Below, one piece after another: positions 8,555-17,392 of a stretch of 17,392 nt of DNA. Position 1 is the first letter of the stretch. Each line of letters begins with the position of its first letter. The notes under the pieces are model-generated. The model did not search any database, had not been told where the DNA came from, and was given only the letters and a program-made list of their open reading frames with translations. The translations under genes and the position numbers were made by a program. The stretch comes from a virus (lineage: Duplodnaviria > Heunggongvirae > Uroviricota > Caudoviricetes): IMG/VR virus record IMGVR_UViG_3300021140_000485; one strand, given 5' to 3'.

Positions 8555-10723
8555 TTAAAAATCTAATTTAACTACAAACTGTTGTATACCCGCTCTTAGA
8601 ACAGGAGATTGTAGTTTAGATATAACAATAAGGTCTAAATTAGAATCGTAAAGCCCAATTTCAGTAATGTAAGGGTTTGTCCCTGTTACAAATGTTGGGT
8701 TTGAACTCGTTGTAAATTGATTATTACCCAAGTTGATTAGATATCTCATCTCGTATATTGTCGCCGCAACATCAGTTTGTAGATTACCATAGAAATAATA
8801 TTCATCCCCAAAGTTGAGTAACTCTGTTTGTCCGTTTTGAGGTATGTCTATGTAATTCGCTAAATTGTATGTGGTTGCACCTGTGTAATCCTCCAAAGAT
8901 ATTTGGAACACTTGGCTAGTAATACCTGAAGCGGTTATGAAATCATTTATTGTTGTTCCCGATAATTGGTCGGTAACATCAATTTCTCTCCATAAGTTTG
9001 GTTGTGGTCTTGTATCACCTGAAACTAACTGACAAATAATCTTCATACTTGTTGCAGTAAACCCTTCAGTAGAACCAGTACCTAAGAATGGGAACTCATT
9101 ACCAAATCTAATTGCAACGTTCTGTGAATTCTCGGTACAAGCAGTTGTTGGTCCAAGAATACTTGAATAGTAGTTACAATGTAACGAATCAGTGAATCCT
9201 GTTGAATCAAATCTATAAGTGACCCACATCTTTTCAGTTTCATTATTCATCACACCTTGACCTGAATTGTTATTTGTAAAACAAGTGTTAGGCGTAATCA
9301 AACTAAGTTGTGGTGCAGGTATCGTCCAGTTTCTATTTGCCTTATATGAAAGTGCAGCAACAACTTCTTCATCATCTATAATAACAATTTCTTGGTCAGG
9401 GAATACCTTACCAATTCTGTTAAGATTATTGTTATCGTCAGGGTTGGTATCATATAAATGATAATATCTAATACCCGGGTCATTCATATCAGGATTTGGA
9501 ACCGACTTAATATAATATGGGACACATAAGTCATATCCCGGAGGGTCTATGTAAAATACTTCACCCGTTGTATTACCAGTTGACTTGTGCCACATCAATG
9601 TTGGAATTGTCAACTTAAAGTTTCTTGCTAATCCTGGGTCTGATGTTGGGTTTTGTGGGTCAAAAGGAACTGTTGCAAATTTCTCAGCATAAACATTATC
9701 AATAGATTGATTAGTGTAGTGGATAATTGCAATAGTTTTTTGGTCCTTAGGTTGAACCACTACTTTTTCATCAAAAGAATTATAATAAAAAGTTTGGCTT
9801 GTATCAGTCTGACCACTATTTTCTTGATAACCAAGATATTCTTTGGTTCCAATATAAGTAACAGAATTGTATTGATTAAACCCTTCATATGTTGATGTGA
9901 AAACTCCTGCGGGTGATTCGCTCCAAGGAATATTCATATTCCAAATTAAAGTACTTTCTTTTTCACACTCATCAGTTGGTAGTGTCGGAACAATAGTATC
10001 GTAAAGTTCTGTCATACCTGAAGGATATACTAAACATCTTGCAATAACACCCGCAGACTGACCAGTATAAATTGGTACAGCTCTGTCTAATGTTAGTGTC
10101 CAAGTTGTTGTTCCTGTTGTTCCTGTTGCAGGGTCAATATCCTGTATCTTGTATGTTAAAACAGGAGATGTTGTAAATTCACCTGTATTGTATCCATTAC
10201 CATCAAAGAAGAATGTAATGAAATCACCGATTGATGGTGTCCCTGTTGTTGACGCGGCAAAGTCATAAGTAATTGAAACCCCACTTGTTTGTCCTGATAA
10301 AGTATTCATCTCAACAACATAGTTAGATGTAACTGTGTAGGCTGAACTTGTCTGAGCACTAAATGGGTAGGTATTACCTGTCACAAAAAACCCATAAGGA
10401 ACTTGTGAATTATAAATGTAGTCGATATTGGAATCCATAAACGGTATTCCGTAAGTATTTCCTGTTACTCCTTTAACAAATAACGGGTATTTAATATTCT
10501 CTTTGTTAGACTGTGGGACACCGTTATCATTCTGAGCATTAAATGCCGGCATCAATATGTCATTATTTGTAACACTATAACTTGGTACCGCAGTGTAATT
10601 TACTTCACTGTCCCCAATTGAAAAATAGGAAATCTGGAAACTTCCCTGAGAAATGTTTCTTCTTCCAACATCAGTAAGTCTAGTGTTGATTAACCCTGAA
10701 GTATTTTTAATGATATATCCCAT
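8555..10723 (-). CDS. Putative baseplate/tail-collar structural protein (722 aa) with P2 gpH/DUF3751-like termini
   Basis: N-terminus LTDVGRRNISQGSFQISYFSIGD and C-terminus YITEIGLYDSNLDLIVISKLQSP resemble the two halves of the tail-fibre collar domain (ITTAG...ITTMAVGD / MRELGLYDDAGTLIAVAN). The interior is T/G/S/N-rich and beta-like. Confidence 0.6.
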   Translation of the reverse strand: MGYIIKNTSGLINTRLTDVGRRNISQGSFQISYFSIGDSEVNYTAVPSYSVTNNDILMPAFNAQNDNGVPQSNKENIKYPLFVKGVTGNTYGIPFMDSNIDYIYNSQVPYGFFVTGNTYPFSAQTSSAYTVTSNYVVEMNTLSGQTSGVSITYDFAASTTGTPSIGDFITFFFDGNGYNTGEFTTSPVLTYKIQDIDPATGTTGTTTWTLTLDRAVPIYTGQSAGVIARCLVYPSGMTELYDTIVPTLPTDECEKESTLIWNMNIPWSESPAGVFTSTYEGFNQYNSVTYIGTKEYLGYQENSGQTDTSQTFYYNSFDEKVVVQPKDQKTIAIIHYTNQSIDNVYAEKFATVPFDPQNPTSDPGLARNFKLTIPTLMWHKSTGNTTGEVFYIDPPGYDLCVPYYIKSVPNPDMNDPGIRYYHLYDTNPDDNNNLNRIGKVFPDQEIVIIDDEEVVAALSYKANRNWTIPAPQLSLITPNTCFTNNNSGQGVMNNETEKMWVTYRFDSTGFTDSLHCNYYSSILGPTTACTENSQNVAIRFGNEFPFLGTGSTEGFTATSMKIICQLVSGDTRPQPNLWREIDVTDQLSGTTINDFITASGITSQVFQISLEDYTGATTYNLANYIDIPQNGQTELLNFGDEYYFYGNLQTDVAATIYEMRYLINLGNNQFTTSSNPTFVTGTNPYITEIGLYDSNLDLIVISKLQSPVLRAGIQQFVVKLDF

Positions 10724-10752: not shown

Positions 10753-12744
10753 TTATTGTACTGTTACTTGTGATGCATTTATTGTATGACTTAATTTAGC
10801 CTCTCCTTGATTGTATAACGCTGAACAACAATTACATCCGTTAATTGAAACGTTACTTAAGTATACTGTAATATTTTGTGTTACCTCAGTCATACATCCA
10901 TTAACATTCAACGGAGTGGTTATATTAACATTTGAGTTACAAGCTCCACTTACCACATCACCAGCAACCATAGTAATTGGGTATGTATTAACATAATCAG
11001 TTGTGTATTGGTTATTTGGTGCACAGAATGGTCTTGGGTCAACAGATGACGAACCTGTTGTTGTAGGTGTAAGTACGTTTGTATTCTTCTTAGTTGTCAG
11101 TGTGTAAGTTGCACTACCATCACCAGGTTGTTTTTCAATTTGTTCAACATCGATTCCTAAATCAAATGATAATGTAACACCAGGTGATAAAGGTGGCAGT
11201 ACATTTACTCTCCAAGTAATATTTCTACTAAATGTAGCGTTAGTCGCTTGGGTTAATTGTTGTATTCCAACTGAGTATGTTACCGGTGATGCTTGTGAAG
11301 CAACTACGACAGTTTGTTGGTATTGAGCGTTATTTTGGTCTTTTACCACTACAGAATATGCGCCAGGACATAATCCGTTTACGACATTGGTTCCATTGAA
11401 TGTAACTCCGTTATCTGTTGAATATAAATAAGGTCCGATTCCGCCAGATGGTAAAATTGTTATCGCTCCATCACAACTACTTAGACAACTTGATGCCTGT
11501 GCAGTTACTTTAGCACTTATAACATTAATTGTTGAACAAGTACCAGTGTAAACTGTTACGTTAGCATTTTTAGTAGCTCCAACAGGATACCATCCTGATA
11601 ATGGTACTGATGAAGCGTCTTGAGAAGCAACAGTTCCACCATATTGAGTGTAACCAGTTACATACCAAGTACTATTCTGTGGGTTCCATACCATACCATA
11701 AGTTGAACCATTTGACCAACTTGGTTTACCATTAATACTACCATTCGGGAAGAATTGGATTTGTTCAGGAGTGTTCTGACCCCATTGGATAAACATACAT
11801 AAGTTTGGATACACAGGTGTTGCAGATGGTGTGATTGAAGGTGTTGGTGTATTAGTTGGTGTAGGTGATGGTGCTATTAACGAACAAGATGTATATGCTG
11901 TGAAATCACCATAAAAGTCGGATACAACAACTTGGTAAGACCCCCCCTTTAAGTTAAATAAGTAAGGTGTTTTTTGTCCACCCTCCCAAGTTATATCGTA
12001 AGGTGGTGTTCCACCTGTGATAGTTAGATATAATTTACCATCAAAACTTTTTGGTGTTGATGGGTTAACACCATAACAACTAACTCCCATTGGGAATACT
12101 GTGAACACATCACAATCATTCTTTGGGACATAAATAACATTGTTTGTTGGTGTCGGAGTTGGTGTTGGTGTATTAGTTGGGCTTGAAGTTACGGTTGATG
12201 TAACTGTTGGAGTAACTGTAGCAGTTGGTGTTGAATAAGGTGTAGCCGTTGGTGTTTGAGTTGGGCAAGTTGTAGATGCCGGAACAAATAGTTTTGTAAC
12301 TCCGTTATGTGGTTTAGTGTAGTCAAATATAATTGTTGTGCCAGAACTTGTTCCATATACATAGTTTCCACAACAATCGTAGTAATAACACTTCTCACTA
12401 GTCGTATATCCTGAACCACAAACAATAGATGTTGGTGTTGGAGTATAATTAGGTGTTCTAGTTGGGAATGGTGTTGGTGTTATACTTGGCTCGGGTTCAT
12501 CAACACAAGGATTTAATAAAATACCATTAAAATTTATAAAACCACTTCCACCATTTTCAATATAAACATCTTGACTCGTTGCGTATGAACCACTTTCTTG
12601 ACAACCACAAACACTATAAAAATTACCAGGTTGTATGGTTGCACTTTGTGATGTAGTTCCATCATTACAAGAATACGAATAAAAAATCTGAGGAGATTCA
12701 GACTCATTCCATACCATCCATCTAATACAAGTAGTACAAGCCAT
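10753..12744 (-). CDS. Cys-rich modular putative virion/fibre protein with PT linkers and two SprB-like repeats (663 aa)
   Basis: SprB-like units VSCYG...DGKLYLTITGGTPPYDITW...NLKGGSYQVVVSD (11908-12084) and SSC...DGAITILPSGGIGPYLYS...GLCPGAYSVVVKD (11329-11502). Three PT tracts. No signal peptide. Confidence 0.75.
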   Translation of the reverse strand: MACTTCIRWMVWNESESPQIFYSYSCNDGTTSQSATIQPGNFYSVCGCQESGSYATSQDVYIENGGSGFINFNGILLNPCVDEPEPSITPTPFPTRTPNYTPTPTSIVCGSGYTTSEKCYYYDCCGNYVYGTSSGTTIIFDYTKPHNGVTKLFVPASTTCPTQTPTATPYSTPTATVTPTVTSTVTSSPTNTPTPTPTPTNNVIYVPKNDCDVFTVFPMGVSCYGVNPSTPKSFDGKLYLTITGGTPPYDITWEGGQKTPYLFNLKGGSYQVVVSDFYGDFTAYTSCSLIAPSPTPTNTPTPSITPSATPVYPNLCMFIQWGQNTPEQIQFFPNGSINGKPSWSNGSTYGMVWNPQNSTWYVTGYTQYGGTVASQDASSVPLSGWYPVGATKNANVTVYTGTCSTINVISAKVTAQASSCLSSCDGAITILPSGGIGPYLYSTDNGVTFNGTNVVNGLCPGAYSVVVKDQNNAQYQQTVVVASQASPVTYSVGIQQLTQATNATFSRNITWRVNVLPPLSPGVTLSFDLGIDVEQIEKQPGDGSATYTLTTKKNTNVLTPTTTGSSSVDPRPFCAPNNQYTTDYVNTYPITMVAGDVVSGACNSNVNITTPLNVNGCMTEVTQNITVYLSNVSINGCNCCSALYNQGEAKLSHTINASQVTVQ

Positions 12745-13391
12745 TATACGCAGAGTGTAAAGTTGATTATGATTCCACTTGAATCTATTTGTACCGCATA
12801 TGTGTTAGCTCCGAATATCATTTTTCTCCATCTATTACCTTGATTTACAGGGTTGAATAAACTACCACCAATGTTTGTTTGATAAACTGTTGCACCTATT
12901 ACAGGTGTTGATGGTGTCGCAACATAAGAAGTATAGTAATAGTCATCTAAAAGTGTATCCAAACACGCACTTGATGAATTAACATATAAATTTCTACCTA
13001 TTTGATGCGGATAAACCAAACTTGTTGGTGTTGGAGTAGGCGTGTTACTTGATGTAGGTGTTGGGGTCGCTTGAAGTGTTGTTGAAGGTGTTGGTGTAAT
13101 ACTAGCGGTTGGTGTTGTAGTTGGAGTATGTGTTTGTGTTGGAGTTTGTGTTGGCGTATTAGTTGGTGTTGGAGTTGGTGTTATGTAAAGAGTCTGATAA
13201 ACGGTACAACCCGCAGCATCAACAATTTTAATCACAAAGTCTAATGAAGAATATGAATCAGGAACATCAAATGTATAAGGGGCACTTGCAACAGTTGCAA
13301 CTGAAACACAGTTCCCACTAAAACTATCGCAATAAAAAACCTCAAACGGTAAGTTTGCTGTAATATTAGGTATGGTAACTGTTTGACTCAT
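12744..13391 (-). CDS. Putative virion protein: conserved N-terminal 3-Cys domain + PT linker + ~90-aa C-terminal domain (215 aa)
   Basis: The N-terminal ~68 aa align by eye with the N-terminus of 13421..15028. PT tract at about 13025-13185. TAATG overlap with the downstream gene. Confidence 0.75.
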   Translation of the reverse strand: MSQTVTIPNITANLPFEVFYCDSFSGNCVSVATVASAPYTFDVPDSYSSLDFVIKIVDAAGCTVYQTLYITPTPTPTNTPTQTPTQTHTPTTTPTASITPTPSTTLQATPTPTSSNTPTPTPTSLVYPHQIGRNLYVNSSSACLDTLLDDYYYTSYVATPSTPVIGATVYQTNIGGSLFNPVNQGNRWRKMIFGANTYAVQIDSSGIIINFTLCV

Positions 13392-13398
13392 TTATCTA

Positions 13399-13404
13399 TA
13401 AATA
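13399..13404 (-). promoter_or_regulatory. Candidate phage late-promoter or leader motif TATTTA, 7 nt upstream of ATG
   Basis: Minus strand gtTATTTA-tagataa-ATG(13391). The plus strand here reads TATAAATA (13397-13404), the T4 late consensus but in the antisense orientation. Confidence 0.45.
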
Positions 13405-13420
13405 ACATTTTTCATTTTTT

Positions 13421-15028
13421 TTATTGTCTAACTCCAAGTCCTCTGACTCTGTCTGTAAATATTGTATTACCATTTGTGGTTGGTGTCCAAATTTCTCCGT
13501 CATTTGAAACCGCAAGTTGATTTGTTCCAATACCACCCATAATCCATTGGTTACCGTCCCAAGCAACTGAATACACTAATACAGTAATTATACCACTAGC
13601 GGTACTTGATGGTTGCCAACTGAACCCATCAGTTGAATATGCAATTTTATTTGTCCCTCCACCACCGGCTAAGAATCTTAAACCATTGTGAGATACTGCG
13701 TATGTATCTGATGTAAATACGGTGTTTCCGTTTGTGGATGCAGACCAAGTAATACCATCGTAAGAAATTGCAACCTTATTTGTTCCACTTCCAACCGCAA
13801 CGAATCTATCATTATACCAAACAATACTTCTAACTGCACTGTTTATAATTGAATTACCATTTGCCGATTGGAACCAAGTAACCCCATTATCATCAGAATA
13901 GAATATTGTTTGAGTAACTAAACCTCCAGCTTGTCCACCAATAACCCATCTACTTCCATTTGAAGCCGTACATAACAGTGCGTTGTTACCAAACACACCA
14001 CTGGCTGAACTTCCTGTCCAAGTTATACCATCATTAGAATATGCAACTTTTGACGCTCCTGAATTAATACCAACCGCCATCCAAAGACCATTATACCAAT
14101 TCACCCCATAAACCAATGTACCAAATATTGAACTTCCATTCGCCGAGTCGACCCAAGTATCACCATCATACGAGTATAGTAACTTGTTAGTACCAGATGC
14201 TCCAACAACAAATTTAACACCGTCACTCGCAACGCTCCAAGTTGTACTTGATGCCAAAGCATTTCCGTTTGTAGAATTAGTCCAATTTAATCCATCCGTA
14301 CTATACCCAAGTTTATTAATTGTTCCCGCAGCAACTATCAAAGGAGGTAGTGGTGCGGTTCCACTTGGTGTTTGTGTTGGGGTATAACTTGGTGTTGGTG
14401 TATTAGTGTTAGTTGGTGTATTAGTTGGTGTATTTGTAGGTGTTTGAGTATTCGTAGGAGTATTTGTTGGTGTTTGAGTATTCGTAGGTGTATGTGAAGG
14501 AGTATTGGTTGGGGTATTTGAATTTGTAGGAGTATTAGTATTTGTCGCAGTGTTAGTAGGAGTGTTTGTAGGCGTACTTGAATTTGTTGGGGTATTTGTT
14601 GTAGTATTTGTTGGTGTAGTAGTTGTTGTAGGCGTTTGAGTATTTGTCGGTGTATTTGTCGGAGTATTTGTCGGAGTAGATGTCGGAGTATTTGTTGTAG
14701 TATTAGTTGGTGTTACAGTTTGTGTATTTGTATTAGTCGGAGTGTTGGTATTTGTTGGGGTGTTTGTTGGTGTAGTAGTAGGTGTCGGTGTTGGAGTAGG
14801 TGTAAAATATATTAAAGACGTTCCTGTAAGAACACAATTTGACGCATCCACAACTTTCAAAACATATTCATCTGAATTATCGTATGGTGATGGTATGTTA
14901 AATGTATATGGTATCTCAGAAGTCGTAATTCTATCAATATAAAAACAGCCTGTCCCATCAAATTGACAGATGTAAACGTCATAAGGACTTGTTCCTGTTA
15001 ACCCATTTATTGTTACTTGAATTGCCAT
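13421..15028 (-). CDS. Putative virion protein: conserved N-terminal domain + ~146-aa PT/TN linker + BNR/Asp-box beta-propeller (535 aa)
   Basis: Seven Asp-box motifs spaced ~44 aa: YSTDGLNW, YSYDGDTW, YSNDGITW, YSDDNGVTW, ISYDGITW, YSTDGFSW, VSNDGEIW. Confidence 0.82.
   Translation of the reverse strand: MAIQVTINGLTGTSPYDVYICQFDGTGCFYIDRITTSEIPYTFNIPSPYDNSDEYVLKVVDASNCVLTGTSLIYFTPTPTPTPTTTPTNTPTNTNTPTNTNTQTVTPTNTTTNTPTSTPTNTPTNTPTNTQTPTTTTTPTNTTTNTPTNSSTPTNTPTNTATNTNTPTNSNTPTNTPSHTPTNTQTPTNTPTNTQTPTNTPTNTPTNTNTPTPSYTPTQTPSGTAPLPPLIVAAGTINKLGYSTDGLNWTNSTNGNALASSTTWSVASDGVKFVVGASGTNKLLYSYDGDTWVDSANGSSIFGTLVYGVNWYNGLWMAVGINSGASKVAYSNDGITWTGSSASGVFGNNALLCTASNGSRWVIGGQAGGLVTQTIFYSDDNGVTWFQSANGNSIINSAVRSIVWYNDRFVAVGSGTNKVAISYDGITWSASTNGNTVFTSDTYAVSHNGLRFLAGGGGTNKIAYSTDGFSWQPSSTASGIITVLVYSVAWDGNQWIMGGIGTNQLAVSNDGEIWTPTTNGNTIFTDRVRGLGVRQ
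14365..14803. repeat. Degenerate coding repeat for a Thr/Pro/Asn mucin-like linker (TPTNT units)
   Basis: About 146 codons almost entirely T, P, N, Q, S. Synonymous codons are varied, so this is not a perfect DNA tandem array. Confidence 0.9.
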
Positions 15029-17391
15029 TAGTTACACTCAGTTATTGTTGATGGGGTTATGGAAATAATTCCGTCTACGATTGAAGTTACAGTATCGTTT
15101 AGGTTTGTTGAAGGACATATGTCACAAGTTGTAACAGTATATGTTTTACTAGCAGATGTCTGACCTTGTGGTATACTAATAACCAAATTGGTGGTACCAT
15201 TTCCTAAACAGTCACTAGTTGATAACTCAATTGTTACCGTAACATTTGTAGGTGCCGGATATGGTGTTCCACCATTTCTTAGTGTAACCGTTACCTGATT
15301 ATCTTGTCTTGTATATCCACCACATTGGTCAGGTAAACCTGTTCTAAATATAGATTCGGATAATGTAACACATAACGCCAATGGTGACGGTGTTGGTGTT
15401 AAACCAGGTGTTTTAGTAACACCAGGTGTTTGAGTTATCAATACCACAGGGTTCGCTAAACAATCAACACAATTAGCATAAATGGTTGGTTTATTTAAAT
15501 TGAAATAATTTCCTGTGAAGTAAGTTAAAATTGTTTGACCTGCAGGGTAGTAATTCAAGAATTGTCCAACATAAGTCCAACATTCACCATTTACAGTTTG
15601 GAATGTTTGTCCTGTCATAATAGCAAAATTCGTAGGTTGAGTTTGCATTATTGTGGACTGAGGATAGTTAGACTGATTCAATGCACAAGTTTGGAATACA
15701 TAAACAAAGTCTGCCGGTGATGCGGTAGGTGTCATAGTTGGGCTTGGAGTTATAGTTGGTGTCGGTGTGTTTGATGCTGTAACACTTGGTGTAGGTGTCA
15801 ATGTGAATCTACAATCAGTGCAGTTAGCATAAAGTTGAACAATAGAATTAAGAACCGAGTTTGGTTGTGTATTACTATCGTTTCTATCATATGTTAAACA
15901 GAATAGGTCACCATTCACGTATCCGCCAAAAGTTGTTCCAATTGAAATAGGTATTCCGTTAAATGTTAATGTGTCGGATACATAGAACTCAAGATTACTA
16001 TCACAATCTTTAAGAACTTTAGATGTTGGGCAAGTAAACGCCTCTTCAAAGAATGTATAAACTAATTGTCCACCAACTTCAACTGTTCTCGTAGGACTAA
16101 TCGTAGGAGTCAATGTTGGCGATGGTGTTGTTGGTGTATAAGCTGAGAATGAGAATGACATATCACCAGCACAAGTAGATGTTGACGGTGTTGGGGTTGG
16201 AGTTGATGGAATAGATGTAACACTAAATGTTACATTATCACAAGTAATCGATGGTGTTGGTGTTGGGAATGGTACAAAATCACAATCAAAATATGCCGTA
16301 AAATCTAAAGTGTTACAATTTACCGAAGAAGGTGTTGGTGTAGGACAAGGTCCTGTTGAGAAGTAATTAGACGATATGTCGGGACATATTGAATAACAAG
16401 GGTATGTCCCCTCTAATAAACAAGTTCCACCTAAAGAATTACTTAAACACCAAACATCACCAGTATGATAGATGTAACCTGTGGTGATACCGTCTCCTGT
16501 ATAGTAGAGTCTTGAATTGTATGTTCCAGCAACTTCAAAATTACCACTATAACCTGAAAGGGTTGGATAGTTTGTTCTAAAACAAAATTCTGTGTATGGA
16601 CAAGAACTTGGTGTTGATGAAACTGTTGGTGTATTTGTTGGTGTTGGGTTTGGTGTTGGGGTTGGTGTAGGTGTTAAAACACAACTACTACAATCGCTAT
16701 ATGATGGAACACCTAATGAAGGTCCACCTGGTCCTGAGAATTCAACAAATGAATAACAACTACCATTGTAAAGATATGTTGCACCCACAAAAGCAGTGTC
16801 AGTGTCAACTAAGGCGTAAAATATGGTACCATCACTACACTTAGTTAACAATGCAGAATCTTGAGGTCCTGTTCCTGTCGCAGTTGGCGTAGGTGTTGGT
16901 GTTCCTGTTGAAGTACTTGTTGGTGTTTGAGTTGGTGTCGGGGTGTTAGTCGCTGTTTGGCTATTGGTTGGTGTTACTGTAGGTGTTTGGCTATTGGTTG
17001 GTGTTACTGTAGGTGTTGGTGTCACACAAGGAACCGATATCAAACAAGTTGCACAATCGACTTGTAATGTGAACACAACTCCAACTGAGGAATAAAGATT
17101 ACCAACAGCTGAATATGGAACCACAGTTCCACAACCATTATATCCTGAACCACCAATTATACTATAAACCTGCCCAACTGTTAAAGTTCCTGGAACGTTT
17201 TCATATCGGTAATAATTACCGTAACAACAATCTTGAAATAAATAAATGTCATACGGTTCAGTTGACGTTGGTGTCGGTGTAGGGGTAGTTGTTGTGGTAT
17301 TTGTGGGTGTTTGAGTCGGAGTAGTTGTTGTGGTATTTGTAGGTGTTTGAGTTGGAGTATTAGTTGCCGTATTTGTAGGTGTTTGAGTCGG
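15028..17391 (-). CDS. Large Cys-rich modular putative virion protein with PT linkers, 5'-truncated (at least 787 aa)
   Basis: I translated the frame upstream of the track's GTG at 17124. It stays open to the window edge (PTQTPTNT...STEPYDIYLFQDCCYGNYY...), so the real start lies beyond 17392. Four modules end in [DN]CxxC, separated by PT tracts. Confidence 0.85.
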   Translation of the reverse strand, partial: PTQTPTNTATNTPTQTPTNTTTTTPTQTPTNTTTTTPTPTPTSTEPYDIYLFQDCCYGNYYRYENVPGTLTVGQVYSIIGGSGYNGCGTVVPYSAVGNLYSSVGVVFTLQVDCATCLISVPCVTPTPTVTPTNSQTPTVTPTNSQTATNTPTPTQTPTSTSTGTPTPTPTATGTGPQDSALLTKCSDGTIFYALVDTDTAFVGATYLYNGSCYSFVEFSGPGGPSLGVPSYSDCSSCVLTPTPTPTPNPTPTNTPTVSSTPSSCPYTEFCFRTNYPTLSGYSGNFEVAGTYNSRLYYTGDGITTGYIYHTGDVWCLSNSLGGTCLLEGTYPCYSICPDISSNYFSTGPCPTPTPSSVNCNTLDFTAYFDCDFVPFPTPTPSITCDNVTFSVTSIPSTPTPTPSTSTCAGDMSFSFSAYTPTTPSPTLTPTISPTRTVEVGGQLVYTFFEEAFTCPTSKVLKDCDSNLEFYVSDTLTFNGIPISIGTTFGGYVNGDLFCLTYDRNDSNTQPNSVLNSIVQLYANCTDCRFTLTPTPSVTASNTPTPTITPSPTMTPTASPADFVYVFQTCALNQSNYPQSTIMQTQPTNFAIMTGQTFQTVNGECWTYVGQFLNYYPAGQTILTYFTGNYFNLNKPTIYANCVDCLANPVVLITQTPGVTKTPGLTPTPSPLALCVTLSESIFRTGLPDQCGGYTRQDNQVTVTLRNGGTPYPAPTNVTVTIELSTSDCLGNGTTNLVISIPQGQTSASKTYTVTTCDICPSTNLNDTVTSIVDGIISITPSTITECN
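16954..17017. repeat. Perfect 30-nt tandem duplication (codes PTVTPTNSQT twice)
   Basis: tgtttggctattggttggtgttactgtagg at 16954-16983 and 16984-17013, plus 4 nt. Confidence 0.95.
17285..17356. repeat. Near-perfect 36-nt tandem duplication (codes PTQTPTNTTTTT twice)
   Basis: Copies at 17285-17320 and 17321-17356 differ at 2 positions, both synonymous Pro third positions. Confidence 0.9.
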
Positions 17392-17392
17392 A

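What the first reader, a model, noticed from the sequence alone, without database searches (positions are those of the whole stretch)
10753..17391. Cassette of tethered, interchangeable-head virion proteins (shared anchor + PT linker + variable domain)
Seen: four consecutive, mostly TAATG-coupled genes are all built from small Cys-containing domains joined by Pro/Thr linkers. The 215-aa and 535-aa proteins have paralogous N-termini (V-T-I-x-x-[IL]-T...P-[FY]-[ED]-V-[FY]-x-C-x6-C...PYTF-x-[VI]-P-x-x-Y...[FY]-V-[IL]-K-[IV]-V-D-A-x-x-C). They then have PT linkers of different length (~55 vs ~146 aa) and unrelated heads (a ~90-aa domain vs a beta-propeller). None of the three complete proteins has a signal peptide. 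Inference: a constant domain plugs into a common virion socket and displays different binding heads on flexible tethers of graded reach, organised like a cellulosome or adhesin array rather than rigid trimeric fibres. The shared PT-coding DNA could act as recombination joints for head swapping. This is the best candidate here for an undescribed system.
Basis: partly seen in the sequence, partly recalled or inferred. Interest (0 to 1): 0.78.

Follow-up and report, generated by a model that had tools for sequence, protein, structure and literature searches.

The report
Phage proteins: shared anchor, swappable heads
A large uncultured lake phage, probably of Bacteroidota, carries proteins built from one small constant N-terminal domain, a long flexible Pro/Thr tether and interchangeable binding domains; this design recurs in hundreds of related phage proteins, but whether and where they sit on the virus particle has not been shown.

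Summary
The 215-aa and 535-aa proteins share a real N-terminal domain of about 68 aa (BLASTP E 2e-12). It defines a phage family of at least 510 clusters at 50% identity. The domain starts at or within a few residues of the first residue in 143 of the 145 phage-type proteins among the best 150. In 44 of those 145 it is a free 70-80-aa protein. In 73 of the other 101 a Pro/Thr/Ser linker follows it directly (10-285 aa, median 60). The first module after the domain falls into 49 unrelated sequence clusters among 75 proteins. The same heads also occur on other N-terminal domains: the window's seven-bladed propeller usually sits on a different anchor.

The constant domain is a small FN3/Ig-like sandwich, distantly related to the stalk repeats of Bacteroidota T9SS adhesins. 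In complete relatives the cassette lies at the far end of the same-strand gene block that starts at the baseplate gene. It always lies next to a conserved protein of about 725 aa.

Not shown: virion location, the "socket", and recombination at PT tracts (only 15-21-nt shared words; no strain-level breakpoints). Complete relatives have only two or three copies per genome, so this is not an array. A first-stage note of this scan had already flagged the same block on near-identical DNA. My verdict is a new variant of the known "conserved anchor, variable receptor-binding tip" design.

The parts
15028..17391 (-). C-terminal 787 aa of a 1126-aa protein. It is a string of small modules, each with 4-5 Cys and ending in C-x-x-C, joined by PT linkers. 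The window ends inside its first long PT tract.
   Evidence: The full length is read from L020:6621-10001. Orthologous modules are present in L001, L006, L008 and L011.
14816..15028 (-). Constant N-terminal domain (aa 1-71) of the 535-aa protein, of the 'MAIQVTIN..TG' subtype.
   Evidence: BLASTP E 2e-12 to its paralogue. The AF2 model has pLDDT 83 and is a six-strand beta sandwich. The family search found 510 clusters.
14342..14815 (-). Pro/Thr/Asn linker of about 158 aa (aa 72-229). The DNA is a degenerate repeat with 12/18-nt periods.
13421..14341 (-). Head of the 535-aa protein: a seven-bladed Asp-box-like beta-propeller (aa 230-535) plus the stop codon.
   Evidence: There are seven S-x-D-G-x-x-W motifs, one with an extra residue. 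At least 1084 homologues exist, and most of the best hits (about 25 of the 45 I inspected) are C-terminal domains on proteins with a different N-terminal domain.
13197..13391 (-). Constant N-terminal domain (aa 1-65) of the 215-aa protein, of the 'MSQ.VTI..TA' subtype.
13008..13196 (-). PT linker of about 63 aa (aa 66-128).
12744..13007 (-). The 87-aa second domain of the 215-aa protein plus the stop codon. It is conserved in 21 family representatives and has no known family.
   Evidence: The only hit is PHROG 21885, of unknown function, at E 5.6e-4.
10753..12744 (-). The 663-aa protein. It has variable N-terminal Cys modules, then a conserved SprB-like repeat module (aa 205-289) and a conserved 353-aa C-terminal region that holds a second SprB repeat (aa 419-448).
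   Evidence: Pfam SprB scores 27.0 bits against a cut-off of 28, in two stretches. The C-terminal parts are conserved in four relatives while the N-termini differ.
8555..10723 (-). The conserved 722-aa neighbour, a phage-only family. The constant-domain gene lies one to four genes upstream of it in all ten contexts inspected.
   Evidence: It has no Pfam, PHROG or PDB match. Its fold is inconclusive.

Best explanation
**What it is.** The four genes are the variable end of the baseplate and fibre gene block of a roughly 300-kb T4-type lake phage that probably infects Bacteroidota. The 215-aa and 535-aa proteins are paralogues of a phage-specific family. The family is defined by a strictly N-terminal FN3/Ig-like sandwich of about 68 aa.

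**How the family is built.** The commonest form is the free domain. Many times independently, a Pro/Thr-rich tether and one or more C-terminal modules were fused behind it. The modules include lectin-like, LRR, propeller and Cys-rich domains. They come from a pool shared with neighbouring fibre-like genes.

**How it most likely works (inferred).** The invariant N-domain is the part that docks onto a conserved virion component. The variable modules are monomeric binding heads held on long flexible tethers. They would widen the capture radius and the range of host or particle surface ligands in reversible adsorption.

**Shown and inferred.** Shown: the family, its strict polarity, the head diversity, the sharing of heads between different anchors, the conserved gene neighbourhood, and the structural-protein-like composition. 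Inferred: virion location, docking through the N-domain, and ligand binding by the heads.
For: - **Paralogy and family.** E 2e-12 between the two N-termini. An exhaustive profile search found 510 clusters at E<=1e-3 and 182 at E<=1e-10. The domain starts at or within a few residues of the first residue in 143 of the 145 phage-type proteins among the best 150.
- **Architectures.** Of those 145, 44 are free proteins of 80 aa or less. In 73 a PT/S linker follows the domain directly (10-285 aa, median 60).
- **Head diversity.** Among 75 extended members, the first domain after the N-domain falls into 49 BLAST clusters. The N-domain tree needs at least 19 changes between the free and extended states. 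Pfam names a few heads: Fib_succ_major, DUF285, DUF5122 propeller, BspA LRR and Laminin_G_3.
- **Orthologue comparison.** At the same locus the gene is a free domain, carries a Cys module, or carries the propeller.
- **Heads shared between anchors.** The propeller is mostly the C-terminal domain of proteins with a different N-terminus, 'MATTRPFAYNTG', some with collagen repeats or a Peptidase_S74 domain. A head of about 195 aa sits on the N-domain in some phages and on another N-terminus in G001 and G002.
- **Fold.** The model has pLDDT 83 and is FN3/Ig-like (Z 6.2, rmsd 2.4 A over 66-68 residues). The profile also matches the 90-aa Ig-like repeats of T9SS adhesins.
- **Genomic context.** In complete relatives the block runs on one strand from Baseplate_J to the cassette. 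The sheath and gp23-type capsid genes lie elsewhere. The N-domain gene lies one to four genes upstream of the 722-aa family in ten of ten contexts, including one where that protein is only 33% identical.
- **Composition.** K+R is 2-5% in the cassette proteins against 10-18% in all but one of the replication-side genes of the window, as is usual for fibre and surface proteins.
- **General principle (established knowledge, from memory).** In phage fibres the conserved end attaches to the particle and the variable end binds the receptor.
Against: - There is no direct evidence that any of these proteins is in a virion. No cultured phage carries the domain, so no proteomics exists.
- The partner of the N-domain is unknown.
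- Ig-like and FN3 domains on phages are usually accessory binding or spacer modules, not anchors.
- The neighbouring 663-aa protein has the opposite polarity, with a variable N-terminus and a conserved C-terminus. So "conserved end = N-terminal anchor" is not a rule within this block.
- The 215-aa subtype largely keeps one second domain.
- Cys-rich modules would have to fold in the reducing cytoplasm, unless they bind metal or oxidise only after lysis.
Confidence: 0.5

Rival explanations
1. The small domain is a fibre-associated adaptor or assembly protein. It is a small gene wedged between two large fibre-like genes, as tail-fibre assembly proteins are. It would bind a neighbouring fibre protein, not a general virion socket, and may stay attached to it, sometimes bringing extra modules along.
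For: Its position is fixed between a very large modular protein and an SprB-repeat protein in all ten contexts inspected. In this window it is translationally coupled (TAATG) to the upstream gene. The distant paralogue in G001 and G002 also sits directly after an SprB-repeat protein or a relative of the 663-aa protein. The free 70-aa form is the commonest.
Against: The ends of the flanking large proteins that face the gene are not conserved between relatives, whereas the N-domain is. The fold is a plain FN3/Ig sandwich and is not like known fibre chaperones, as far as my memory of those goes. The long tethers and lectin-like heads suit display better than chaperoning.
Confidence: 0.17
2. The proteins are Hoc-like accessory decorations in which the Ig-like N-domain is itself a weak glycan-binding or spacer module. 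Attachment to the particle, capsid or tail, would be through something else, and the shared N-terminus would reflect only common descent of the gene's 5' end.
For: The domain is homologous to the stalk repeats of T9SS surface adhesins. Ig-like domains on phages are classically accessory, as in T4 Hoc (from memory). An SprB-repeat protein in the same block gives weak PHROG hits to 'Hoc-like head decoration' and 'virion structural protein'.
Against: The free 70-aa form has nothing else to attach with. The C-terminal parts are far too variable to hold a common attachment site (49 clusters). The strictly N-terminal position in 143 of 145 phage-type proteins points to a role for that end.
Confidence: 0.18
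3. They are not virion proteins. They would be made late and released at lysis as soluble modular binding proteins, for example to coat debris, decoy receptors or modify the host surface or matrix.
For: The build resembles secreted modular enzymes and adhesins (PT linkers, Cys-rich modules, lectin-like heads), yet there is no signal peptide. One relative has a reprolysin-type protease domain in the neighbouring SprB protein.
Against: The genes lie in the same-strand block that begins with the baseplate gene. Their composition matches the adjacent conserved structural-like protein. A strictly conserved terminal domain is hard to explain without a docking partner.
Confidence: 0.1

Closest known systems
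Modular phage tail fibres and receptor-binding proteins: a conserved N-terminal attachment region with horizontally exchanged C-terminal receptor-binding domains (for example T4 gp37/gp38, P2 gpH, lambda Stf)
   Same: Same polarity, with a constant N-terminus and a hypervariable C-terminus. Heads are exchanged between different proteins and phages. The genes lie in the baseplate and fibre block.
   Different: There is no trimeric shaft (no coiled coil, beta-helix or collagen) in these two proteins. A long, low-complexity Pro/Thr tether joins the parts, the anchor is a 68-aa FN3/Ig-like domain, and the commonest form has no head at all. Whether the protein is monomeric was not tested.
T4 Hoc and other Ig-like-domain decorations of phage particles (Ig-like domains on bacteriophages; knowledge from memory)
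   Same: Small Ig/FN3-like sandwiches on phage structural-type proteins, which are thought to mediate weak adhesion to glycans.
   Different: Hoc anchors through its C-terminal domain and displays Ig domains. Here the Ig-like domain is the constant N-terminal part and the displayed modules are not Ig-like. No sequence match to Hoc was found for the N-domain.
SprB-type and other T9SS-secreted adhesins of Bacteroidota (Ig-like_POM152, SprB and Kre9/Big_7 repeats with a Por_Secre_tail)
   Same: The N-domain profile matches their 90-aa Ig-like repeats (13-21 bits per repeat in P0005, E 2e-47 overall). The neighbouring 663-aa protein carries SprB-like repeats.
   Different: The phage proteins have one copy at the extreme N-terminus, no signal peptide and no T9SS sorting domain. 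Pfam's own models do not reach the N-domain.
Cellulosomes and modular glycoside hydrolases (a catalytic or binding module, a PT linker, then a CBM or dockerin)
   Same: Beads-on-a-string build with Pro/Thr linkers. FN3-like modules of such enzymes are among the best structural matches (CtXyl5A, Z 6.2). The heads are lectin-like.
   Different: No cohesin or dockerin pair was found, no scaffoldin was identified and the proteins have no secretion signal. The likeness is architectural only.

Membership tests
N-terminal ~68-aa phage domain family (defined here by alignment A1) | Significant profile match over the whole domain, with conserved C21, C28, P-Y-x-F, K-x-x-D and C65 | tested here: met
   Both window proteins score 105-113 bits. 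The columns are invariant in A1 and nearly invariant in 68 long members.
N-terminal ~68-aa phage domain family (defined here by alignment A1) | The domain occupies the extreme N-terminus of the protein | tested here: met
   The match starts at or within a few residues of the first residue in 143 of the 145 phage-type proteins among the best 150. The five multi-repeat exceptions are T9SS-type adhesins.
SprB repeat (Pfam PF13573), for the 663-aa protein | Score at or above the Pfam gathering cut-off (28 bits) | tested here: inconclusive
   It scores 27.0 bits, E 3.6e-6, in two stretches, just under the cut-off. Orthologues carry weak or faint precomputed SprB hits. A paralogous block protein in G001 scores 86.5 bits.
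Ig-like_POM152 / T9SS adhesin stalk repeat (PF24312), for the N-domain | Match to the Pfam model | tested here: inconclusive
   Pfam gives no hit on the window proteins at E<=0.1. In the other direction, the A1 profile matches 16 repeats of P0005 at the places where Pfam calls Ig-like_POM152.
BNR/Asp-box (sialidase-type) beta-propeller, for the head of the 535-aa protein | Repeated S-x-D-x-G-x-T-W motif, one per blade | tested here: met
   Seven S-x-D-G-x-x-W motifs at residues 243, 286, 331, 378, 422, 465 and 508; the one at 378 has an extra residue.
BNR/Asp-box (sialidase-type) beta-propeller, for the head of the 535-aa protein | Sequence membership (Pfam BNR or a sialidase) and the catalytic residues of sialidases | tested here: inconclusive
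   No Pfam hit. The best PDB sequence match is an exo-alpha-sialidase at E 0.24 only. Catalytic residues were not examined and the head was not folded.
T4 Hoc-type head decoration | Homology to Hoc, or a C-terminal capsid-binding domain behind Ig-like domains | tested here: not met
   No Pfam or PHROG Hoc hit for the four window proteins. The polarity is the reverse of Hoc.
Cellulosome-type cohesin-dockerin assembly | Cohesin and dockerin modules | tested here: not met
   No such Pfam hits in the window proteins or in 68 family members.
P2 gpH-type tail-collar fibre N-terminal domain (PF12571), for the 722-aa neighbour | Match to the family model, or the same fold formed by its N- and C-termini | tested here: inconclusive
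   No HMM hit on the termini or in five related phage records. In the AF2 model (mean pLDDT 53) both termini are of low confidence, and the best structural matches reach Z 7.7 or less. The resemblance of the motifs is from memory only.

The most novel reading that the evidence does not exclude
These phages use a true plug-and-display system. One universal 68-aa Ig-like plug docks monomeric proteins onto a conserved site of the particle, perhaps on the ever-adjacent 722-aa protein. Whatever is fused behind the plug through a Pro/Thr tether is displayed. New heads are captured from a pool shared with the other fibre genes by illegitimate recombination in the low-complexity tether DNA. That would give a natural, evolvable phage-display scaffold for host-range change.
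Probability: 0.22. Interest if true: 0.8.

Novelty: new variant of a known kind. Interest (0 to 1): 0.6.

Why it matters
If the small domain is a self-sufficient docking module, it explains how very large uncultured lake phages diversify their adhesins. New binding modules would be bolted behind one constant plug through a flexible tether, not built into new trimeric fibres. It would also offer a compact natural tag for displaying arbitrary domains on such phages.

The family is large: at least 510 clusters at 50% identity. It is unannotated and common in lakes. The stretch 12700-15100 of this window is held nearly word for word by 17 lake metagenome runs dated 2016 to 2024, though some of them may be the sample the window was assembled from.

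Naming the family and its head repertoire would help annotate a sizeable part of the dark matter in freshwater viromes. It would also help predict what these phages bind to.

Tried and rejected
- **Docking test.** Complex prediction of the N-domain (A1) with the 722-aa neighbour (A4) gave no answer: score 0.00 and the controls were not run. This says nothing either way.
- **Fold of the 722-aa protein.** With 21 sequences the mean pLDDT was 53. The structural search gave only Z 7.7 or less, to small barrels of phage tail proteins and other barrels. The ESM Atlas model is also poor. The idea that its two ends form a split tail-collar domain found no HMM support.
- **The window's own contig.** An exact 50-nt word was not found in IMG/VR and no whole genome is held. 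So genome-wide counts come from relatives.
- **Cultured phages.** There is no nucleotide match for the window, no tblastn match for the N-domain apart from one E 0.5 hit, and none for the 722-aa protein.
- **Block upstream of the cassette in G001 and G002.** PHROG and Pfam scans of these proteins named nothing except SprB repeats.
- **Strain-level breakpoints.** Contigs 99.85-100% identical to the window have no gaps in the PT tracts. Laid contigs show no indels. The many 'joints' between PT tracts have sides of only 21-28 nt at 90% likeness, which the tool warns are repeat or foreign artefacts. I reject them as evidence of recombination.
- **Transcription.** RNA-library contigs match parts of three of the genes exactly, but DNA carry-over is not excluded, so I do not count this as expression.
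- **Literature.** Four searches aimed at this design found no description of it. A fifth, on virion glycosylation, turned up a paper on large aquatic 'moraphages' of Bacteroidota (PMC12619734), which may concern related phages; I did not test whether this phage belongs to that group.
- **Second domain of the 215-aa protein.** An Atlas feature search gave only sub-threshold leads to viral proteins of about 85 aa.

Full report
**Setting.** All sixteen genes I take as real (the longest non-nested ORFs) lie on the minus strand. Downstream of the finding lie a RuvC-like resolvase, a DnaG-type primase, an exonuclease and SbcD- and SbcC-like nuclease subunits. The primase is nearest to those of Flavobacterium phages and of a 484-kb uncultured phage, at 33% identity. 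No cultured phage matches at the DNA level. Earlier notes of this scan call the genome an uncultured giant freshwater phage of Bacteroidota. My own results fit that host: SprB-like repeats in the 663-aa protein and homology of the shared domain to T9SS adhesin repeats. Contig L021 is 100% identical where it overlaps the window and L020 is 99.85% identical. They show that the fourth gene is really 1126 aa. They also show that an ADP-heptose-like sugar-activation cluster lies just upstream.

**The observation.** The four ORFs, their coordinates and the TAATG overlaps at 15028 and 12744 are as described; the third junction is a 29-nt spacer. Each protein is a string of domains joined by Pro/Thr tracts. 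P+T is 24-32% of residues and K+R only 2-3%. All but one of the replication-side genes in the same window have 10-18% K+R. The two large proteins hold 3.8% and 4.6% Cys.

The N-termini of the 215-aa and 535-aa proteins align at 34% identity with E 2e-12. The linkers are about 63 and 158 aa by my mask. The heads are unrelated. One is an 87-aa domain. The other is 306 aa with seven S-x-D-G-x-x-W motifs (one carries an extra residue) spaced 43-47 aa apart, which indicates a seven-bladed Asp-box-type propeller.

**The shared domain is a large family.** I aligned eight copies from the window and related viral contigs (A1) and searched 1.84 billion representative proteins with the profile. This found 510 clusters at E<=1e-3 and 182 at E<=1e-10. 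Five of the best 150 are long multi-repeat proteins. At least three are Bacteroidota T9SS cargo: they carry Por_Secre_tail, and their repeats are Ig-like_POM152, SprB or Kre9/Big_7.

- In 143 of the other 145, the domain starts at or within a few residues of the first residue.
- 44 of the 145 are free proteins of 80 aa or less.
- In 73, a Pro/Thr/Ser linker follows the domain directly (10-285 aa, median 60).
- The remaining 28 are short extensions, fragments or linker-less fusions.

There are two subtypes. The 'TG' type includes the 535-aa protein and has 97 representatives: 38 free, 39 with other extensions and 20 short. The 'TA' type includes the 215-aa protein and has 47 representatives. 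Twenty of these keep the same 88-aa second domain, and eight of those twenty add further modules behind it.

**Heads are interchangeable.** Among 75 extended members, the first domain after the N-domain falls into 49 BLAST clusters, of which 43 are singletons. On a tree of the N-domain, the free and extended states change at least 19 times. The tree rests on 68 columns, so noise may inflate this count. Pfam names only a few heads: Fib_succ_major, DUF285, a DUF5122 propeller, BspA-type LRR and Laminin_G_3. These are all typical surface-binding modules.

At the orthologous locus of close relatives the 'MAIQVTIN' gene takes three forms. It is a free domain of 69-74 aa in three lineages. It is a 218-aa protein with a Cys module in one. 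It carries the propeller only in this window's phage.

The reverse also holds, because the same heads occur on other anchors.

- The propeller has at least 1084 homologues. About 25 of the 45 best hits I inspected carry it as the C-terminal domain, behind a roughly 70-aa PT linker, on proteins with another N-terminus ('MATTRPFAYNTG...WWMGPDE'). Some relatives also carry collagen repeats or a Peptidase_S74 chaperone domain, which are hallmarks of phage fibres.
- A head of about 195 aa sits on the N-domain in several phages. In G001 and G002 it sits on a different N-terminus.
- Other heads recur inside the large neighbouring proteins.

**What the domain is.** AF2 gives a confident six-strand sandwich (pLDDT 83). 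It matches FN3/Ig-like domains only generically: Foldseek E is 0.07 or worse, and VIA gives Z 6.2 with rmsd 2.4 A over 66-68 residues. Its close structural neighbours are unannotated viral proteins of 73-74 aa. The profile matches 16 consecutive 90-aa repeats of a T9SS adhesin at 13-21 bits each, at the places where Pfam calls Ig-like_POM152. So it is a distant relative of the stalk domains of host-phylum adhesins.

**Context.** Two complete relatives (309 kb and 295 kb) carry only two or three copies each. One or two are in the cassette, and a divergent paralogue of 103-106 aa lies upstream (13.5 kb in G001; about 33 kb across the contig ends in G002). In G001 one same-strand run leads from a Baseplate_J gene to RuvC and primase. 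On the way it passes large unannotated proteins, a six-repeat SprB protein, the paralogue, more modular proteins, a glycosyltransferase pair, the cassette and the 742-aa orthologue of the 722-aa protein. The sheath and the gp23-type capsid genes lie far away.

The cassette order is big modular protein, N-domain gene(s), SprB-like protein (or another large protein in the two most rearranged contexts), then the ~725-aa protein. The N-domain gene lies one to four genes upstream of that protein in all ten contexts inspected. This includes one where the ~725-aa protein is only 33% identical. That protein belongs to an abundant phage-only family with no Pfam, PHROG or PDB match, and it folded poorly.

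**Mechanism.** Three things point to the N-domain as the part that meets a conserved partner, with the C-terminal modules as displayed binding heads. These are its strict N-terminal position, its conservation against hypervariable C-termini, and the existence of a free form. Virion location is inferred from the gene block, the composition, the lack of export signals and the fibre-type relatives of the propeller. None of this is direct. The docking test with the 722-aa neighbour gave no answer.

I give 0.5 to "virion-displayed, N-terminally anchored tethered adhesins". The main rivals are a fibre-bound adaptor or assembly protein, a Hoc-like accessory with no anchoring role for the domain, and soluble proteins released at lysis.

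**PT tracts as recombination joints.** Module borders coincide with PT tracts throughout, which fits the idea. The DNA evidence is thin, however. The tracts are degenerate 12/18-nt repeats at 60-75% identity. The longest exact words shared between genes are 15-21 nt, against 11-12 nt between non-PT genes. Near-identical strains show no indels. Recent slippage does occur within one tract, where the first linker of the 1126-aa protein holds 96-nt repeats at 96-99% identity.

**Comparison and novelty.** The logic matches that of modular tail fibres: a conserved attachment end and exchanged binding tips. The execution differs. There is a 68-aa Ig-like plug, a low-complexity tether where a trimeric shaft would be, heads drawn from a lectin-like pool, and a headless form as the commonest state. 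It is not Hoc, since there is no homology and the polarity is reversed. It is not a cellulosome, since there is no cohesin or dockerin. Four literature searches aimed at the design found no description of it. I rate it a new variant of a known kind, with interest 0.6. A first-stage note of this scan had already flagged the same block on near-identical DNA.

Noticed in passing
L020:3172-6292 (just upstream of the full-length fourth gene; beyond window end 17392): A sugar-activation cluster with a PfkB-type kinase, a CTP_transf_like nucleotidyltransferase, a cupin and an NAD-dependent epimerase (ADP-heptose-like). A SET-domain gene and a methyltransferase-like gene lie further upstream (L020:1-3119). 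Relatives instead carry GT9, GT1 or sulfotransferase-like genes at this position (L001:5370-7129, L013:933-4981). Whether these enzymes modify the PT linkers is untested.
   Followed up: partly
window 17100-17392 and L020:7466-7744: The first long PT linker of the 1126-aa protein holds tandem 96-nt units that are 96-99% identical, which indicates recent repeat expansion. The window ends inside this tract.
   Followed up: partly
window 15028-17391: A module of 58-92 aa with 4-5 Cys recurs four times in the 787-aa fragment. Its pattern is C ... C ... C-x-x-C at the C-terminal edge. A fifth C-x-x-C lies in the last domain. Structural zinc or post-lysis disulfides are both possible. The module was not folded.
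   Followed up: no
L024:1-13501: In a distant relative, the gene before the free 72-aa domain encodes a protein of more than 6500 aa. The gene after it encodes a 1760-aa protein with SprB repeats and a reprolysin-type metalloprotease domain. This would be an enzymatic module in the same cassette.
   Followed up: no
L016:7750-9117 and L017:2290-4708: A second, divergent copy of the small domain (106 and 103 aa) lies upstream in complete relatives (13.5 kb in G001). It sits directly after an SprB-repeat protein or a relative of the 663-aa protein. It sits directly before a PT-linked protein whose head of about 195 aa is found fused to the small domain in other phages.
   Followed up: partly
window 8555-10723: The 722-aa protein is very conserved (57-100% identity across the lineage, at least 2891 database hits) and poor in charged residues. 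Its first 40 and last 40 residues recall the opening and closing motifs of a tail-collar fibre domain. No HMM or fold result supported this resemblance.
   Followed up: partly
window 12740-12997, 14439-14588, 16034-16259: Contigs from three freshwater metatranscriptome libraries match these stretches with no differences. Seventeen lake metagenome runs (2016-2024) hold 12700-15100 at 97% or more of the sampled words. DNA carry-over into the RNA libraries is not excluded.
   Followed up: partly
window 10753-12744 versus L001:10322-12640, L008:11408-13444, L011:10213-12423: The 663-aa protein has the opposite polarity to its small neighbours. Its N-terminal Cys modules differ between relatives, while the SprB-like module and the C-terminal 350 aa are conserved.
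   Followed up: partly
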